A DNA stretch of 44,379 nucleotides from sequence record ON548431.1; one strand, written 5' to 3'. Positions 34,598 through 39,933 of the stretch are shown here, piece by piece. Both the position numbers and the translations under genes were made by a program. The first letter of the stretch is position 1. Every line of letters begins with the position of its first letter. The notes under the pieces were generated by a model. The model did not search any database, had not been told where the DNA came from, and worked only from the letters and a program-made list of their open reading frames with translations. Origin of the DNA: Escherichia phage PEC9.

Positions 34598-34876
34598 CTA
34601 CGCGACCAATTCAGCAACCAATAAATCGCAGTCGGATATGTTGTCGATAACGCGAACGTCAGCACCGCGGCGGGCCATTCGCTCATGTTCACGTACCTGG
34701 TGCGGCTTCGGTTTTCCTCCGGGGCGCTTCACTTCGACGAACACTATTTTGCCGTTGATGATAATAATCAGGTCGGGCGCACCTGCGCGCCCCTCCCATG
34801 CCAGTTTTCGGCAGAATCCGCCAACATCTTTCACCCGTCTCATCAGGTGACTTTGTATCTTGCCCTCTGGTGTCAT
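34598..34876 (-). CDS. VRR-NUC-type nuclease
   Basis: 92 aa from ATG 34876; segment GAPDLIIIINGKIVFVEVKRPGGKP matches the PD...E-x-K core of VRR-NUC domains; directly downstream of polymerase. Confidence 0.55.
   Translation of the reverse strand: MTPEGKIQSHLMRRVKDVGGFCRKLAWEGRAGAPDLIIIINGKIVFVEVKRPGGKPKPHQVREHERMARRGADVRVIDNISDCDLLVAELVA
34614..34622. promoter_or_regulatory. Motif core GCAACCAAT
   Basis: 9-mer at 34614-34622, about 60 bp upstream of minus-strand start 34557. Confidence 0.35.
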
Positions 34877-37167
34877 TATTTCCTGTACCTGTACATAATG
34901 TCGCCTTCCGCGGCAAGCGGGAAGCCTTTCGCCCAAACAGGCAGGTCGCACATCAGCGCGCACAACTCCTCGGTTGTGTAGTCGTCAGTATCCGGCACTT
35001 CGGTTATCAGTTCATCGTGTACGGACAGTACGATCTCATATCCCGCAGCTTCAACGCCAGGCATGGACCATGCGAGGATATCGCGACACAGCGCCTGCAC
35101 GATGTTTTCCGTGAGTTTGCCGCCGTAGGTGTACTGGAAGCCCCACTGGCGGGTCGTCTGATTCTCGCCCTGATATTTAATGCGGGTGCTGGTGCGTTTC
35201 TTGCCAGTATCTTCGTCGATCTCGGTCGTCACTGACAGCGCAATGCCTGGATAACTCATGATGCGCCCCGACGGCAACTCAATTTTCAACCACCACCCCG
35301 CGGCGTTCGGATCGTCGCGCTCCTCGTCGAAGGTAGGGTCGTGCTTCGCCTTCGTGCGGACTATCTTGAGCGCTTTCTTACCATCCGGGCGAACGTTCGC
35401 GCCAGCCCAGTACGCTTTGCCCGGATTGCGGATTGCGCAAAGCACCGCGTCTTCTAGTTCGGCCCAAAATGCCACCGTCTTCGGGTGCGACTCGCGCCAC
35501 ATACGTTTGATCGCATCACACGTCAGCCATACGTTTTTAGGCAGTATGTAAGTTGGGCGCTCGTCCTTCTTGCCAGGCTTCGGCGGGCGCTTCGCTTCGT
35601 TGATCCGGGCGTACTCATAACCCCGTTTCGCCGCCGCCCAAATGTGACCGGGGAATGTTCCCTTCATCACTTCAGCCATCGCGTAAAGGTCGAGGCCCAG
35701 GTTTTTAGCGAACTGCAAGAACGCAGCCACGCCGCCGCCATAGCCAAGGCCCAATTCGCACGCCTTACCGATCTGGCGTAAGTCTTTGCGGTTGGCTTTA
35801 ATGTATTCCGGGTCAAGGCCGAACATCTTACCGGCAGTCTCACAATAAATATCTCGATCGGCCTTAAACACCATGAGCGCTGTTTTCTCGCCAGCGATCC
35901 AGGCAAGTCCACGCCCTTCCACGTTGGAGTAGTCCGCTACGACAAACTTCTTACCCTTCGCCGGAATAATGCACCCACGAACGGTCGAGGCGGTTAGCTT
36001 CGATATGTCATACGCCCAGTGTGCGGTCCCACGTAACAGGGAATTGATGCCGTTGGTGAGCATGTGCGACCGCACCCAAAACGCGACGTCGCTCTCGCCT
36101 TCACGGCGTTTAATCTTCCCTTCGTGGTCGTCGCTATACTCGCCACGCGCCAGGTTTTGAGGCTGAAAGCCTTTACCGGCCCAGCGTAGCGTGCGCTTTG
36201 CGCCGCCATACTGAAGACACCCACGGCGGCGACCATCGGCGGACAGGCCATTTACGAGCGGATTGTACTTAGTCGATGCCGTTGATGACGCACCGAGGCG
36301 CATCTCGATAAGCACTTTGCCTTCGTCGGGGAAGTCTGGATCTTCCAGCAGGTCGTTAAGCGTGGATTTCTGCGCGTTGTGGATTGTGAACGCAGGCGCG
36401 AGGTCGCGCAGCGCAGGCAGGAAGTCATTGCCGGTCAGCTTACCGCCGAAGCGCTCCCAGGCTTCTTCCTTCAATTCTTCTTTATGCGCCTGCACCGCTT
36501 TGATCGCGGCGCGCGCCAGGTCAACGTCAACATAGAAGCCGCGGTCGTTAATCAACTGGTCAATAAGCAGGATTTCGTCTTCCTTCGGCGTGTTACCCCA
36601 GTCTGGTATGCGCCAATAGACTTCCCTCATCGCGATGATATCCAGCGCGGCATAGCGCAGAAATTTGGCCCATTCTTCAGGGTGAGTCTCGCGAGTGTAG
36701 CGGCGGATTTTGTAAGTCTTAGGGGTCGGCTTACAGAAGCGTTTGATCAGCGCCTTGCCCGCCTTATCCTTCGCGTGCTCTGCGTCAACGCCAAGCACCT
36801 GGCACTGCATATCGAGACTACCCGGCAACGCGTGTCGAAAGGCCATAATCATGGTGTCTTCGATCTGGCACACTGGCAGGTCAATACCCCACTTCTCGCG
36901 AATAACCAGGCGGTCAAACAAGAGGCCGTTAGCCATCACGATTTTTGCTTTCTTGCGGGATACCCGGCGGAGCGCCTTGCGCAGTTCACGCGGCATTGTG
37001 GGGGACTCGGTGCAATCCCACGTTTGCACGCGGCCTTCGTCGATGGCGTATGTGCAAATCATAATCTCGGTAGTTGGGTGTTCCGCGTAGGCGTACGCAC
37101 CAACTTTCTTCAGGTCTACCCCGCTAAATGTCTCGGTGTCGAGAAACAGGCGTTCGAAGTCTTTCAT
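34876..37167 (-). CDS. DNA polymerase I (family A) with 3'-5' exonuclease domain
   Basis: 763 aa; N-terminal exonuclease motif LDTETF; polymerase motifs DYSNVEGR, K...LGLGYGGG and VHDEL. Confidence 0.9.
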   Translation of the reverse strand: MKDFERLFLDTETFSGVDLKKVGAYAYAEHPTTEIMICTYAIDEGRVQTWDCTESPTMPRELRKALRRVSRKKAKIVMANGLLFDRLVIREKWGIDLPVCQIEDTMIMAFRHALPGSLDMQCQVLGVDAEHAKDKAGKALIKRFCKPTPKTYKIRRYTRETHPEEWAKFLRYAALDIIAMREVYWRIPDWGNTPKEDEILLIDQLINDRGFYVDVDLARAAIKAVQAHKEELKEEAWERFGGKLTGNDFLPALRDLAPAFTIHNAQKSTLNDLLEDPDFPDEGKVLIEMRLGASSTASTKYNPLVNGLSADGRRRGCLQYGGAKRTLRWAGKGFQPQNLARGEYSDDHEGKIKRREGESDVAFWVRSHMLTNGINSLLRGTAHWAYDISKLTASTVRGCIIPAKGKKFVVADYSNVEGRGLAWIAGEKTALMVFKADRDIYCETAGKMFGLDPEYIKANRKDLRQIGKACELGLGYGGGVAAFLQFAKNLGLDLYAMAEVMKGTFPGHIWAAAKRGYEYARINEAKRPPKPGKKDERPTYILPKNVWLTCDAIKRMWRESHPKTVAFWAELEDAVLCAIRNPGKAYWAGANVRPDGKKALKIVRTKAKHDPTFDEERDDPNAAGWWLKIELPSGRIMSYPGIALSVTTEIDEDTGKKRTSTRIKYQGENQTTRQWGFQYTYGGKLTENIVQALCRDILAWSMPGVEAAGYEIVLSVHDELITEVPDTDDYTTEELCALMCDLPVWAKGFPLAAEGDIMYRYRK

Positions 37168-37340
37168 TGCTTAATCCTCACTACGGCGTCGGCGCTGCCG
37201 ATCATGGAGAAGATACCATCGGAAAGGGTAATCTCCTCGCCGTTGTTGCGAATCTCGGCAACTGTGAAATATTCGCCCAGCATTTTGGACCATACTTGCA
37301 TTCCGACTTTTACTTCGCTGGCTTTAATACGCATTTTCAT
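37164..37340 (-). CDS. Small protein (58 aa) translationally coupled to DNA polymerase
   Basis: Codons stepped by hand: ATG 37340 to TGA 37164-37166, which overlaps the polymerase ATG (ATGA); below ORF-track cut-off. Confidence 0.35.
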   Translation of the reverse strand: MKMRIKASEVKVGMQVWSKMLGEYFTVAEIRNNGEEITLSDGIFSMIGSADAVVRIKQ

Positions 37341-37345
37341 TGTCC

Positions 37346-37374
37346 TATTAAAAAGCCCGCATTAAGCGGGCTTG
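37346..37374 (-). terminator. Rho-independent terminator (minus strand) after SSB-like gene
   Basis: Minus-strand reading gives AAGCCCGC-TTAAT-GCGGGCTT followed by TTTTTAATA. Confidence 0.5.
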
Positions 37375-37391
37375 AATAGTGGGCTTTGCCC

Positions 37392-38177
37392 TTAACGGCG
37401 GCGACGTTTACGTGGTGCTTCGTCTTCGTCGTCTTCGTCCTCATCTTCATCGTCGCGCGGCTTACGACGTTTACGAGGTTTCTCATCTTCGTCGTCTTCG
37501 TCGTCATCGCGGCGCTTGGACTTTTTGGACTTGCGCGGCTTGTCGTCTTCGTCATCGTCATCACGACGTTTTGACTTTTTGGCCTTGCGCGGGCTTTCAT
37601 CTTCGTCATCGTTGTCCAGGTCTTCGTCGGAGCAAGAAGACCCGCCACCGCCGAAGGCTTCACCGTCATCACGGAAGCGTAAACCCAGCAAGCCAGCACC
37701 GAGTCCCTTGCCGTTGGTGTTGTTCCACGCCCAAATATCCAAGGACACGTTGCAATAACATCCGGAGTAGATCTCCTGGCCTTCGATCTCGTCGCCTTCT
37801 ACGGTCAGACCTTGTTCAGTCTGCTTCTCGCCGAGTGACGTTTGAATGTTTGGCTGTTTGAACGATTTGGCGTTGATGTACAACATGCCTTCGAATTCTT
37901 CGGTCACTTCATCGCGCTCGTCACCGTCGCGAACTGCGCATTCCTTAGAATCCTGTGCGTAGTGGCGGTCCATCCACTTATCGGCGTTCTTCTCGGATTT
38001 CAGCTTGTCGGTGAGCACTGCGCGCGCTGCCGCTTCCACTTTGTCCACCTGCGGATCTTCTTTATCAAGAAGAATCACTGCACGGTATGCCGGTTTTTGA
38101 CCATCCTGTTTAGGGGTATCGCGTTCCCAAATTTTAAGGAAACATACGCGCACATTTTTCAGGTTGACTTTAGCCAT
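37392..38177 (-). CDS. SSB-like protein with alternating acidic/basic repetitive C-terminal tail
   Basis: 261 aa from ATG 38177 (GAGGA RBS); C-terminal about 80 aa made of repeats such as DEDE-KPRKSKKSKRR-DDDEDDEDE; co-located with Cas4-like nuclease; SSB role inferred. Confidence 0.5.
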   Translation of the reverse strand: MAKVNLKNVRVCFLKIWERDTPKQDGQKPAYRAVILLDKEDPQVDKVEAAARAVLTDKLKSEKNADKWMDRHYAQDSKECAVRDGDERDEVTEEFEGMLYINAKSFKQPNIQTSLGEKQTEQGLTVEGDEIEGQEIYSGCYCNVSLDIWAWNNTNGKGLGAGLLGLRFRDDGEAFGGGGSSCSDEDLDNDDEDESPRKAKKSKRRDDDDEDDKPRKSKKSKRRDDDEDDEDEKPRKRRKPRDDEDEDEDDEDEAPRKRRRR

Positions 38178-38232
38178 TTTCCAATTCCTCATTTTAACAT
38201 GTATCGGGGCTATTGTGAGCCACCCCGTTCGG

Positions 38233-38267: not shown

Positions 38268-38510
38268 TCAAGCACTTTCATTAAAAAGATTTCTGGTCAC
38301 GTAGTTGGTAGCGTTCTCGACCCCGCTTAACGGCGGTCGGTCGATGTTCTTCTCCACCCAGTCGACGGCAGCGTCACTATATCCGTCGTCCAGCCAGCGG
38401 GTCGGATGGCGAATCATCCACGCCACCATTAACACGCCTTGCACGCAATGCAGGATAAAGCCCAGCGCGCCGAGCAAAAACATCAATAAGATTGCGAATA
38501 CTTTATTCAT
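38268..38510 (-). CDS. Small membrane protein (80 aa)
   Basis: GAGGA RBS; two hydrophobic helices (FAILLMFLLGALGFILHCVQGVLMVAWMI). Confidence 0.45.
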   Translation of the reverse strand: MNKVFAILLMFLLGALGFILHCVQGVLMVAWMIRHPTRWLDDGYSDAAVDWVEKNIDRPPLSGVENATNYVTRNLFNESA

Positions 38511-39933
38511 TGCTTAAGTCCTCGTCGGTAGCTTCAGACCACGCGGGGCGCGGGTCGTCGATTGGTGCTAACACCGGTTTTGCAGGTGCGCGTGTGATTT
38601 TAGCACACAGCTTCGCCCACACTTTCGGCTTCTCGTCCTTCAATACCTTCTCGGCATCCGTAGGACTGAGCAATGTTTCTTTGTACATCACATCGCGCTT
38701 GATCCTGGCCTTCGTGAAGATTTCAATCACTTCGCTCTCGTCCGCCCACTTACGGATACCTTCCTTACCGGCAACCATCTTGAGGCCCAGCGATTCGCCA
38801 TCGCCAGCCATGACCGCCTTGAATACCGCGGACTCGATAGCCTTGATGTGCTGGCGCATTGCGTCCAGACCTTCATATGCCTTGCGAAGTTCCGCCGCGC
38901 TCATAGCGCCGGGGGCCGCTTCTTTCTTACCACGCTTCGCGCGTCGTGCCTCCTTCCGGGCTTCGCGGGCCATATTGCGGGCATGGTTGGCGCATTCTTC
39001 CTCTGTCGCAATACTCACGTCGTCGCCCAGATCGTCATCGGTTGCCGTTGGTGGTGTCATCGTGTCGATTGCGGCCTTAGTGCGGGCACTACACTGATCC
39101 GCAAATCTGCACCACTGGCACGCATCAACGCTGGGCCGGAAGTCGGCGCGGGTGAGTCCTTTTTTACCACGGGCGTACGCTTCCAGTGCGGCGATAGCAC
39201 GCTTGGACGCAAACTTCGCGAATATCTCCAGCGCTTCCACTGAGATATCCCACTCTGACGCCCCGCCGCAATACGGCTGGAAGATGACCAGGCGCACGGT
39301 CGTAATGTCATACATGGTTTGCAGCTTGCGCAGCAGGCCGAGCGCGTACAACATAAGCTGTTTGTTTTCTTTTGCCTCGACCTTATGTCGCCCGGTCTTC
39401 AGGTCGCCAACAATCAGCATGTACGTGCCGTCGGTCTTTTTCATGACCGTGACCATATCGGCAGTGCCGAACGTTTTAACCCTGTTGCCTTCGATCTCGA
39501 AGCCTGGGTGAAGGACGCGGGTCAGATCGGCGCGCATCTCAAGCTGGACAAACTCCGCCACTTCGAGGAGCGGTCGCCAGTGGTCGATGTACGCGTCGCA
39601 CTGTTTCACCATGTCGTCATTGACCAGTACGCCGCCTTTCGGTGCTTTCGGGTGCGCCTTTACTGGCCCCTTGCCTTCATTCTCGACGTAACATCCTTTA
39701 TACGTCTTTGCTGTTATCAGCTTTTCACCGGCGATAATGCGGTTTAGCACCACTTCAGATACGGTGTGCATACTCGTACCGTTAATCGCGGCTTGCCCGG
39801 ATTCGTTCGGGATATCTTTTTCTACCACCAGGGCGGCGGGACACCCCATCCATTTTTTAGCACCGGATGGCCCGAGTAATGAGTGTTCCGTATTGCTGCC
39901 GGATTGCGTTTTACGTTTTGGTTTAATCGCCAT
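38503..39933 (-). CDS. RecB-family (Cas4-like) PD-(D/E)xK nuclease with Fe-S cysteine cluster
   Basis: 476 aa; motifs D...GDLK, QLMLY (QxxxY) and four Cys (QPYCGG, CQWCRFADQC); basic/acidic C-terminal extension. Confidence 0.6.
   Translation of the reverse strand: MAIKPKRKTQSGSNTEHSLLGPSGAKKWMGCPAALVVEKDIPNESGQAAINGTSMHTVSEVVLNRIIAGEKLITAKTYKGCYVENEGKGPVKAHPKAPKGGVLVNDDMVKQCDAYIDHWRPLLEVAEFVQLEMRADLTRVLHPGFEIEGNRVKTFGTADMVTVMKKTDGTYMLIVGDLKTGRHKVEAKENKQLMLYALGLLRKLQTMYDITTVRLVIFQPYCGGASEWDISVEALEIFAKFASKRAIAALEAYARGKKGLTRADFRPSVDACQWCRFADQCSARTKAAIDTMTPPTATDDDLGDDVSIATEEECANHARNMAREARKEARRAKRGKKEAAPGAMSAAELRKAYEGLDAMRQHIKAIESAVFKAVMAGDGESLGLKMVAGKEGIRKWADESEVIEIFTKARIKRDVMYKETLLSPTDAEKVLKDEKPKVWAKLCAKITRAPAKPVLAPIDDPRPAWSEATDEDLSNE

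What the first reader, a model, noticed from the sequence alone, without database searches (positions are those of the whole stretch)
37392..37640. SSB-like protein carries an unusual alternating poly-acidic / poly-basic tail
The last ~80 residues alternate blocks such as DDDEDDEDE and KPRKSKKSKRR four times, encoded by imperfect DNA repeats (37400-37630). Known SSB tails are purely acidic, so this charge-patterned tail is atypical. It could mediate self-association, partner recruitment or condensate formation, and the DNA repeats make the tail length prone to variation.
Basis: seen in the sequence. Interest (0 to 1): 0.55.

Follow-up and report, generated by a model that had tools for sequence, protein, structure and literature searches.

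The report
Phage SSB with alternating-charge tail

Summary
The minus-strand gene 37392..38177 encodes a 261-aa T7 gp2.5/Enc34-type SSB of a Dhillonvirus-like E. coli phage. Its last 79 residues have 37 acidic and 28 basic residues, net charge -9. They form only 8 charge runs, against 33±4 in shuffles.

The tail is translated and under purifying selection. pN/pS is 0.10, against 0.06 for the OB domain. In 37 of 38 related phage records the gene length is a multiple of three. AlphaFold2 predicts the tail to be disordered.

Within the genus the tail has 2-4 modules of the form [D/E block]-x-Pro-[K/R block], always ending PRKRRRR. Relatives have 2-12 modules.

It is atypical for the family: 127 of the 150 nearest representatives have short, purely acidic tails. 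It is not unique, though. Gp32-type SSBs of jumbo phages (Lu11, PaBG) carry similar tails almost universally. Net tail charge stays moderately negative whatever the number of modules.

The function is inferred, not shown. I propose an electrostatic, multivalent extension of the classical acidic tail that adds SSB-SSB or DNA contacts (cooperativity or condensation).

I found no prior description. Verdict: a new variant of a known kind, of moderate interest.

The parts
37392..38177 (-). SSB gene: 261 codons plus the stop codon. The likely start is ATG 38177 (MAKVNL...), not the upstream ATG 38192.
   Evidence: ORF. Pfam PF10991 and PHROG 112. GAGG lies 9-10 nt before ATG 38177. Phage CHD2B1 has a stop codon in the five upstream codons and eiAU starts at MAKVNL. 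The SECphi4/18 proteins in the escape-mutant table start at MAKVNL.
37653..38177 (-). OB-fold ssDNA-binding domain, residues 1-175
   Evidence: AF2 pLDDT above 90 for residues 1-170. Foldseek hits to 4klk, Enc34 SSB and T7 gp2.5. Family profile against Enc34 5odj gives E=5.8e-39.
37629..37652 (-). Gly/Ser hinge GGGGSSCS, residues 176-183
   Evidence: Read from the sequence. pLDDT drops from 97 to 67 to 57 here.
37596..37628 (-). Acidic block 1, DEDLDNDDEDE (residues 184-194)
   Evidence: Translation.
37563..37592 (-). Basic block 1, PRKAKKSKRR (residues 196-205)
   Evidence: Translation. Pro at the acidic-to-basic junction.
37542..37562 (-). Acidic block 2, DDDDEDD (residues 206-212)
   Evidence: Translation.
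37509..37541 (-). Basic block 2, KPRKSKKSKRR (residues 213-223)
   Evidence: Translation.
37482..37508 (-). Acidic block 3, DDDEDDEDE (residues 224-232)
   Evidence: Translation.
37455..37481 (-). Basic block 3, KPRKRRKPR (residues 233-241)
   Evidence: Translation.
37419..37454 (-). Acidic block 4, DDEDEDEDDEDE (residues 242-253)
   Evidence: Translation.
37395..37415 (-). Basic C-terminus PRKRRRR (residues 255-261). Identical in all 15 Dhillonvirus sequences aligned.
   Evidence: alignment: every sequence ends DEAPRKRRRR.
37488..37612 (.). Imperfect 54-nt (18-codon) tandem repeat, 2.3 copies. This is the DNA substrate for in-frame gain and loss of modules.
   Evidence: TRF. Module-sized in-frame indels among relatives.
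37350..37375 (-). Terminator-like hairpin (stem GCCCGC/GCGGGC, 5-nt loop, then TTTTT) starting about 20 nt after the stop codon
   Evidence: RNA fold gives -24.6 kcal/mol, z=-3.7. Conserved in Ioannina. Missed by the pattern scan.

Best explanation
What is shown:
- The gene encodes the replication/recombination SSB (T7 gp2.5/Enc34 type) of a Dhillonvirus-like coliphage.
- Its C-terminal 79 residues are predicted to be disordered and are strongly charge-segregated.
- They consist of four modules of the form [7-12 Asp/Glu]-x-Pro-[7-11 Lys/Arg/Ser].
- The tail is translated and kept by purifying selection on the protein, not on the DNA.
- It changes length by in-frame duplication or deletion of whole modules.
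- Its net charge (-9) lies in the range of the family's ordinary acidic tails.

What is inferred:
- The acidic blocks keep the classical tail roles known for gp2.5 and Enc34. In the free protein they would act as an ssDNA mimic occupying the basic OB cleft, suppress dsDNA binding, and contact basic patches on the polymerase and helicase.
- The interleaved basic blocks and the poly-Arg end would add valency. They could pair with acidic blocks of the same or a neighbouring tail, or touch the DNA backbone.
- SSB molecules lined up on ssDNA would then attract one another. The result would be cooperative coating, or a condensate-like concentration of replication and recombination proteins, tunable by module number.

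The confidence of 0.45 refers to the inferred mechanism. The identity of the protein and the reality of the selected, translated tail I hold at about 0.95.
For: Identity:
- Pfam PF10991 E=1.3e-31 and PHROG 112 E=2e-52.
- Sequence matches to solved structures 4klk, 4jg2 and 5odj at about E=1e-11, and E=5.8e-39 with a family profile.
- AF2 model plus Foldseek.
- The gene sits between a DUF2800 PD-(D/E)XK exonuclease and a family A DNA polymerase.
- The same module surrounds distant many-repeat homologues.
- The near-identical SECphi4/SECphi18 protein is the experimentally identified trigger of Retron-Eco8, and escapers carry T56P or a change upstream of the gene.

Selection on the tail:
- pN/pS is 0.099 for the tail and 0.061 for the OB domain.
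- pS is 0.32 for the tail and 0.26 for the OB domain, so there is no extra DNA-level constraint.
- Indels are in frame.

Architecture rather than sequence is conserved:
- 108 homologue tails have 2-12 basic blocks built from lineage-specific repeat sequences.
- 397 of 429 acidic-to-basic junctions carry a Pro within two residues, although Pro makes up only 6.4% of tail residues.
- Mean net tail charge stays between -8 and -16 while tail length grows from 29 to 131 aa.

Recurrence:
[quoted passage not shown] The AF2 model of that domain matches the RB69/T4 gp32 core.

Precedents for the inferred roles:
- Removing the Enc34 tail unmasks dsDNA binding, and the tail lies in a neighbour's beta-sheet groove in the crystal (PMC5686142).
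- T4 gp32 uses a basic terminal peptide for cooperativity and an acidic tail for partner binding (PMC12424627).
- E. coli SSB forms condensates through its tail (PMC7584906, listed).
Against: - No binding, cooperativity, partner or phase-separation data exist for this tail. The mechanism is inferred from composition and analogy.
- Copy number varies from 2 to 4 within one genus without obvious consequence. This fits a tolerant spacer as well as a tuned valency.
- The tail lacks the acidic/aromatic tip that gp2.5 needs for polymerase binding, so the 'classical roles retained' step may not hold here.
- In T4 gp32 the cooperativity contact shows no salt dependence, so that analogy is loose.
- Three public sequences show the tail frameshifted. 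If these are real, the phage tolerates loss of the tail.
- The homologue set is enriched for such tails, because low-complexity words were used to collect candidates.
Confidence: 0.45

Rival explanations
1. Near-neutral spacer. The modules are a charge-balanced, highly soluble flexible linker, comparable to the disordered linker of E. coli SSB. Their only job is to set the reach between the OB domain and a terminal interaction motif, and the basic blocks merely neutralise the added acidic ones.
For: Net charge hardly changes as modules are added. Copy number is tolerated from 2 to 12 and from 2 to 4 within the genus. Many distant homologues, and most gp32-type ones, keep an acidic/hydrophobic tip (DDDVA, DDDDVV, WDDDDE) after the repeats.
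Against: The Dhillonvirus tails have no terminal acidic/hydrophobic tip. They end in an invariant DEAPRKRRRR. pN/pS of 0.10 and the conserved junction Pro indicate more constraint than a pure spacer needs. A neutral Gly/Ser/Pro/Gln-type linker would do the same job without extreme charge segregation.
Confidence: 0.25
2. Second nucleic-acid-binding arm. The Lys/Arg blocks bind the DNA (or RNA) backbone directly. This would tether the SSB near duplex DNA or bridge two strands, boosting the strand-annealing and recombination role of this gp2.5-like protein alongside the adjacent DUF2800 exonuclease.
For: PHROG 112 is annotated as an ssDNA-binding and annealing protein. The gene lies just downstream of a PD-(D/E)XK exonuclease, separated by one small ORF, in the window and directly downstream in distant relatives. 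There are 28 Lys/Arg residues in four clusters plus a poly-Arg end.
Against: Each basic block is flanked by a longer acidic block and the tail is net negative, which should disfavour stable DNA binding. In Enc34 the tail reduces duplex binding rather than increasing it. No test was done here.
Confidence: 0.15
3. Counter-defence adaptation. The unusual, variable tail helps the SSB evade or blunt host systems that sense phage SSBs (Retron-Eco8, Hachiman, ShosTA, AbpAB).
For: The orthologous SECphi4/18 SSB is a known trigger or escape locus for such systems. Tail length is polymorphic.
Against: The escape mutations I read for SECphi4/18 are T56P in the OB domain or a change upstream of the gene, none in the tail. 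[quoted passage not shown] The tail architecture is conserved across very distant phages and hosts, which is unlike an arms-race trait.
Confidence: 0.05
4. No protein function. The region is a slippage-prone low-complexity DNA expansion, a DNA-level element such as origin iterons inside the gene, or an annotation artefact.
For: Tandem DNA repeats are present. Other frames and the opposite strand are also open across the region. A few records are frameshifted.
Against: Synonymous divergence in the tail is as high as in the OB domain while non-synonymous change is ten-fold lower. 37 of 38 gene lengths are in frame. The charge architecture is conserved with unrelated nucleotide and repeat sequences. 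The open alternative frames follow from codons poor in T on the coding strand.
Confidence: 0.03

Closest known systems
Enc34 ORF6 SSB and T7 gp2.5 (T7-type SSBs; Pfam PF10991 Enc34_ssDNA-bd, formerly DUF2815)
   Same: Same OB-fold variant, with 26% identity to Enc34 ORF6 at E=6e-15 and structural matches. A disordered, net-negative C-terminal tail follows a Gly-rich hinge. The replication-module context is the same.
   Different: The described tails are acidic and end in an acidic/hydrophobic tip. In Enc34, 16 of the last 29 residues are D/E and the protein ends ...WDEDEV. gp2.5 ends ...DEDGDF. Here 28 Lys/Arg residues are interleaved in four blocks, there are no aromatic residues, and the C-terminus is PRKRRRR. 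gp2.5 has only one rudimentary basic patch in its tail (SAKASKPRDEES).
SSB of phages SECphi4, SECphi6 and SECphi18 (Dhillonvirus), the trigger of Retron-Eco8
   Same: Orthologues. The SECphi18 gene is 93% identical at the DNA level. The tail has the same architecture, with 3 basic blocks in SECphi4 and 4 in SECphi18.
   Different: None in kind. The published work modelled residues 1-186 and left the flexible tail out of the figure, so the tail was not discussed.
gp32-type SSBs of jumbo phages Lu11 and PaBG and of Alcaligenes phage Afa-NA1 (PHROG 15004)
   Same: Similar tail: alternating D/E and Lys-rich blocks with the [D/E]n-x-Pro-[K]n junction, most often 5 blocks, with 116 of 120 homologues having at least two.
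   Different: The DNA-binding domain is unrelated in sequence (BLASTP E=15). Its model matches the RB69/T4 gp32 core. The basic blocks are Lys-rich rather than Arg-rich. Most tails keep a W-DDDDE tip. Net charge is nearer zero and more variable (-4±15).
T4 gp32 (basic N-terminal LAST peptide plus acidic C-terminal domain)
   Same: An SSB that combines a short basic peptide, used for cooperative neighbour contact, with an acidic disordered region used for partner proteins and self-inhibition.
   Different: In gp32 the two elements sit at opposite ends and occur once each. The exact (Lys/Arg)3(Ser/Thr)2 motif is absent from this tail. The gp32 cooperativity contact shows no salt dependence.
E. 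coli SSB disordered linker and C-terminal tip, which drive condensates and non-nearest-neighbour cooperativity
   Same: A disordered SSB tail providing multivalent weak interactions that concentrate SSB and its partners (PMC7584906).
   Different: The E. coli linker is Gly/Gln/Pro-rich and nearly uncharged, and it ends in DDDIPF. That protein is a tetramer. Here the valency would come from charge blocks on a gp2.5-type protein.
Eukaryotic proteins with alternating acidic and basic tracts (nucleophosmin, nucleolin, HMGB1 acidic tail); cited from memory, not tested
   Same: Blocky charge segregation in a disordered region of a nucleic-acid-binding protein. Acidic tracts fold back on basic regions or bind Arg-rich partners.
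   Different: There is no homology and the cellular context is different. This is an analogy only.

Membership tests
T7 gp2.5 / Enc34 ORF6-type SSB (PF10991) | OB-fold core with the family sequence signature | tested here: met
   Pfam E=1.3e-31, 110 bits against a cut-off of 26. PDB sequence hits. AF2 model plus Foldseek: E=1e-12 to 4klk, E=5e-12 to Enc34 5odl, E=2e-6 to gp2.5.
T7 gp2.5 / Enc34 ORF6-type SSB (PF10991) | ssDNA-contact residues seen in the Enc34-ssDNA crystal (Tyr30, Tyr37, Lys46, Arg112, Trp150, Asn154, Tyr156) | tested here: inconclusive
   Pairwise alignment mapped onto the residues named in the paper. Four are kept or conservatively replaced: Tyr30 to F13, Arg112 to K104, Trp150 to W149, Asn154 to N153. 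Three are not kept: Tyr37 to K23, Lys46 to A30, Tyr156 to N155. Other aromatics (W17, W151) lie nearby.
T7 gp2.5 / Enc34 ORF6-type SSB (PF10991) | Unstructured C-terminal segment after the OB domain | tested here: met
   AF2 gives pLDDT of about 50 and no secondary structure for residues 178-261. This is a prediction only.
T7 gp2.5 / Enc34 ORF6-type SSB (PF10991) | Tail purely acidic, ending in an acidic plus hydrophobic/aromatic tip | tested here: not met
   The tail has 37 acidic and 28 basic residues in 8 alternating runs, no aromatic residue, and ends PRKRRRR. 127 of 150 nearest representatives do have the canonical tail.
T7 gp2.5 / Enc34 ORF6-type SSB (PF10991) | Preferential ssDNA binding and a role in phage DNA replication/recombination | not testable with these tools
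   Indirect support only: the replication-module context, and the orthologue's role in activating the SSB-sensing Retron-Eco8.
Blocky polyampholyte disordered regions that self-associate or form condensates | High fraction of charged residues with strongly segregated opposite charges | tested here: met
   Fraction of charged residues 0.82, net charge per residue -0.11. The charge-segregation measure is 10 sd above 20,000 shuffles, and my approximate kappa is 0.61.
Blocky polyampholyte disordered regions that self-associate or form condensates | Demonstrated self-association or phase separation | not testable with these tools
   Needs purified protein or coarse-grained simulation.
T4 gp32 LAST-motif cooperativity peptide | (Lys/Arg)3(Ser/Thr)2 motif | tested here: not met
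   By inspection of the tail sequence, no run of three K/R is followed by two S/T. The nearest stretches are RKSKKSKRR and RKAKKSKRR. This is a resemblance only.
Bacterial SSB-type tail (disordered linker plus DDDIPF tip) | C-terminal acidic-hydrophobic tip that docks on partner proteins | tested here: not met
   The C-terminus is RKRRRR. Some other PF10991 members do end in D(I/V)PF.

The most novel reading that the evidence does not exclude
Blocky acidic/basic tails are a convergent and so far undescribed design principle of phage SSBs. On this reading they arose independently on gp2.5-type and gp32-type DNA-binding domains. The modules zip neighbouring SSB tails together electrostatically, giving cooperative coats or replication condensates, and nature supplies a graded series of 2-12 modules with which to test how charge patterning tunes this behaviour.
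Probability: 0.2. Interest if true: 0.7.

Novelty: new variant of a known kind. Interest (0 to 1): 0.45.

Why it matters
The textbook view is that bacterial and phage SSB tails are acidic, acting as an ssDNA mimic and as a docking peptide for replisome partners. This tail carries nearly as many basic as acidic residues, arranged in strict blocks, and it has a poly-arginine C-terminus. It is conserved under purifying selection across a whole genus of common coliphages, including the model phages SECphi4/18 and members of the BASEL collection. Similar tails recur in a structurally different SSB family.

If the blocks mediate SSB-SSB or SSB-DNA contacts, this would be a new way to build cooperativity or replication foci. 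It would also be a natural test bed for charge-patterning theory.

There is a practical consequence too. The repeats cause frameshifted or mis-started annotations in public records. The flexible tail was also left out of the published structural comparison of the orthologue, which is a defence-system trigger.

Tried and rejected
- The viral-contig search with the whole protein gave only 8 loci, because the low-complexity tail peptides saturated the pattern scan. I used GenBank phage records instead.
- The first homologue search is biased towards similar tails by its shared-word filter. I therefore repeated the survey with the OB domain alone against 1.84 billion representatives.
- I tested a DNA-level role for the repeats (origin or iterons) and rejected it, because synonymous sites in the tail are not conserved more than in the OB domain.
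- I dismissed the alternative-frame and opposite-strand ORFs across the tail as a composition effect. The frameshifted proteins P0005 and P0009 and the Ioannina protein read one of these frames.
- The exact gp32 LAST motif is absent from the tail.
- Pfam and NCBIfam gave nothing for the PaBG/Lu11 proteins, and PDB sequence search gave nothing significant. Only the AF2 model with Foldseek placed them with gp32.
- The promoter/terminator scan missed the hairpin after the stop codon, which folding recovered.
- Literature searches for any description of such tails found none in the library held. The searches covered DUF2815, Enc34, SECphi4/18, polyampholyte and PaBG/Lu11.
- An NJ tree of OB domains needs about 11 gains or losses of the tail type, against 70 for shuffled labels. 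At 30% identity and with a biased sample, I do not rely on that number.

Full report
**Observation**

The longest ORF over the finding is 37392..38192 on the minus strand, 266 codons. Its last ~80 residues read DEDLDNDDEDE-S-PRKAKKSKRR-DDDDEDD-KPRKSKKSKRR-DDDEDDEDE-KPRKRRKPR-DDEDEDEDDEDE-A-PRKRRRR, followed by TAA at 37392-37394.

Tandem Repeats Finder reports a 54-nt unit in 2.3 copies (83% matches) at 37488-37612 and a 9-nt period at 37420-37509.

The 79-residue tail has 37 Asp/Glu and 28 Lys/Arg, is 82% charged, and has net charge -9. It has only 8 charge-sign runs. In 20,000 shuffles the mean was 32.9±3.9, the minimum was 19 and none reached 8. The charge-segregation measure lies 10 sd above the shuffles, and my approximate kappa is 0.61.

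**What the gene is**

- The protein matches Pfam PF10991 (Enc34_ssDNA-bd, formerly DUF2815; E=1.3e-31, residues 8-198) and PHROG 112, annotated as a Gp2.5-like ssDNA-binding and annealing protein (E=2e-52).
- By sequence it matches the solved structures 4klk, 4jg2 and Enc34 ORF6 5odj. A profile of 74 homologues reaches 5odj at E=5.8e-39.
- An AlphaFold2 model has pLDDT above 90 for residues 1-170. Foldseek places it with 4klk (E=1e-12), Enc34 SSB (E=5e-12) and T7 gp2.5 (E=2e-6).
- Of seven Enc34 residues named as DNA contacts, four are kept or conservatively replaced and three are not.

The window is a Dhillonvirus-like coliphage. The region is 95-97% identical to phages SD276, SSL-2009a and many others. 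The gene lies between a DUF2800 PD-(D/E)XK exonuclease (38503..39933) and a family A DNA polymerase (34876..37167).

The SECphi18 orthologue is 93% identical at the DNA level. The SECphi4/6/18 SSB is the experimentally identified trigger of Retron-Eco8. The escape mutations I read are T56P or a change upstream of the gene, none in the tail. That paper modelled residues 1-186 and did not display the flexible tail.

**Start codon**

The real start is most likely ATG 38177 (MAKVNL...), giving 261 aa. The reasons are:
- GAGG sits 9-10 nt upstream of it.
- Phage CHD2B1 has a stop codon within the five upstream codons, and eiAU begins at MAKVNL.
- The SECphi4/18 proteins in the escape-mutant table begin there.

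**Is the tail translated and selected?**

Among 38 full-length matches in GenBank phage records, 37 gene lengths are multiples of three, ranging from 738 to 807 nt.

Fifteen Dhillonvirus genes aligned by codon give pN/pS=0.099 in the tail against 0.061 in the OB domain. Synonymous divergence is 0.32 in the tail against 0.26 in the OB domain. Constraint therefore acts on the protein, and no extra constraint acts on the DNA. This argues against an origin or iteron role for the repeats.

The tails differ by loss or gain of whole modules (2, 3 or 4 basic blocks), and all end DEAPRKRRRR. AF2 gives pLDDT of about 50 and no secondary structure for residues 178-261.

Three public sequences read the tail in another frame: Ioannina, vB_EcoS-22664B1 (P0005) and P0009. 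In Ioannina the reading frame is lost within a run of Gly (GGC/GGT) codons, while the native-frame tail and stop codon remain intact. A sequencing error is therefore the simplest reading.

**How unusual is it?**

I searched 1.84 billion cluster representatives with the OB domain alone, so the tail could not bias the result. That gave 1992 relatives. Of the best 150, 127 have short, purely acidic tails that usually end in a hydrophobic or aromatic residue. Twenty have mixed tails, and these include the six closest intact-frame relatives. The published description of the family says that all four solved members have a long acidic tail. The tail here is therefore atypical for its family.

It is not rare, however. 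Among the collected homologues, 108 have at least two basic blocks and some have up to 12. The repeat sequences are lineage-specific, for example KRGRSRSR, KRRSR, RRKRR and KSKKSKRR. Three regularities stand out:
1. 397 of 429 acidic-to-basic junctions have a proline within two residues, although Pro is only 6.4% of tail residues.
2. Mean net tail charge stays between -8 and -16 whether there are 0 or more than 6 basic blocks, while tail length rises from 29 to 131 residues.
3. About half of these tails keep an acidic/hydrophobic tip (DDDVA, DDDDVV) after the repeats. The Dhillonvirus-like group instead ends in poly-Arg.

Two distant many-repeat homologues that I looked up sit in the same module: primase, DUF2800 exonuclease, SSB, a ~660-aa protein, then an SNF2-type helicase. 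A rough NJ tree needs about 11 changes of tail type, against 70 for shuffled labels. The trait is heritable within clades, but I do not trust the exact count.

**A second family**

DNA similarity of the tail pulled out the annotated SSBs of Pseudomonas phages Lu11 and PaBG and of Alcaligenes phage Afa-NA1. Each lies next to a UvsX/RecA-like recombinase.
- They belong to PHROG 15004.
- Their N-terminal domain shows no sequence similarity to the OB domain here.
- An AF2 model of that domain matches the RB69 and T4 gp32 cores (E=3e-5 and 3e-4).
- A search with the N-terminal domain only found 116 of 120 homologues with at least two acidic/basic alternations. The most common number is 5, the mean tail length is 145 aa, and the tails I looked at show the same [D/E]n-x-Pro-[K]n junction. 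Most end in W-DDDDE.

So a similar tail design occurs on two structurally different phage SSB cores.

**Mechanism (inferred)**

Known facts:
- The gp2.5 tail is implicated in contacts with the T7 polymerase and helicase. [quoted passage not shown]
- Removing the Enc34 tail unmasks dsDNA binding, and in the crystal the tail lies in a neighbour's beta-sheet groove.
- T4 gp32 uses a basic terminal peptide for cooperativity and an acidic tail for partner binding.
- E. coli SSB forms condensates through its tail.

From these facts and the anatomy, I consider the following most likely. The acidic blocks keep the classical self-inhibition and partner roles. The basic blocks add multivalent electrostatic contacts to acidic blocks of neighbouring tails or to DNA, giving cooperativity or condensation that is tunable by module number.

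The main rival is a near-neutral spacer. That reading fits the constant net charge and the tolerated copy number. It fits less well with the invariant basic C-terminus, the junction proline and the low pN/pS.

A DNA-bridging or annealing role, a counter-defence role and 'no function' rank lower, for the reasons given under each rival.

**Novelty**

I found no description of these tails in the papers on Enc34, DUF2815, SECphi4/18, PaBG/Lu11 or polyampholyte SSBs held in the library. The library is incomplete, so this is absence of evidence only.

The protein itself is known. The tail is a new variant of a known kind. Interest is moderate: it contradicts a textbook generalisation and offers a natural series for testing charge patterning, but no function has been demonstrated.

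Noticed in passing
window 38175-38192 (-): The longest ORF starts at ATG 38192 (MRNWKMAKV...), but the real start is probably ATG 38177 (MAKVNL). GAGG lies 9-10 nt upstream of it. Phage CHD2B1 has a stop codon in the five extra codons. eiAU and the published SECphi4/18 proteins start at MAKVNL. Public records are split between the two starts.
   Followed up: yes
window 37350-37375 (-): A terminator-like hairpin (GCCCGC, loop TTAAT, GCGGGC, then TTTTT; -24.6 kcal/mol, z=-3.7) lies between the SSB stop codon and the 58-aa ORF. The pattern scan missed it. In the escape-mutant table for phage SECphi4, the changes listed as 'intergenic upstream of the 56-aa protein' are ATTAA->TTAAT, +TT and G->T. 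These look as if they fall in the loop and T-run of the equivalent hairpin, but I did not map the coordinates.
   Followed up: partly
window 37164-37340 (-): The small ORF between the SSB gene and the DNA polymerase gene belongs to PHROG 10102, of unknown function. Its 56-aa orthologue carries the frameshift E21fs in several SECphi18 and SECphi6 escape mutants. These are listed in the same block as the DNA polymerase mutation R171L, which the paper ties to the Borvo defence system. I did not confirm which system the frameshift rows belong to.
   Followed up: partly
L010 1700-2983, L011 1556-2767, L012 1598-2752: The annotated SSBs of phages Lu11, PaBG and Afa-NA1 (PHROG 15004, next to a UvsX/RecA-like recombinase) have 3-8 acidic/Lys-rich alternations with the same Pro junction. 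The AF2 model of the N-terminal domain matches the gp32 core. 116 of 120 homologues found with the N-terminal domain alone have such tails.
   Followed up: yes
L017 (Escherichia phage Ioannina, OQ589852.1) 151-1005; P0005 (vB_EcoS-22664B1); P0009: Three public versions of this SSB are frameshifted, so the tail is read in another frame (T/K/M-rich, ending ...GFLIGQ). Ioannina is annotated as a 284-aa 'DNA helix destabilizing protein'. In Ioannina the reading frame is lost within a run of Gly (GGC/GGT) codons while the native-frame tail stays intact. A sequencing error is likely.
   Followed up: partly
hit H2 (OQ221563.1): A record named 'Acinetobacter phage NJ01' (host given as A. baumannii, 44,487 bp) is 97% identical to this E. 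coli Dhillonvirus region over 1 kb. The host label looks doubtful.
   Followed up: no
T7 gp2.5 sequence as printed: The classical acidic tail of T7 gp2.5 itself contains one short basic patch with a proline (SAKASKPRDEES). It resembles a single rudimentary module of the repeats described here.
   Followed up: no
window 37337-37861, both strands: Several ORFs in other frames and on the plus strand stay open across the tail, for example 37337..37699 (-), 37379..37861 (+) and 37516..37758 (+). This follows from the repetitive GA-rich codons and is not evidence of genes.
   Followed up: partly
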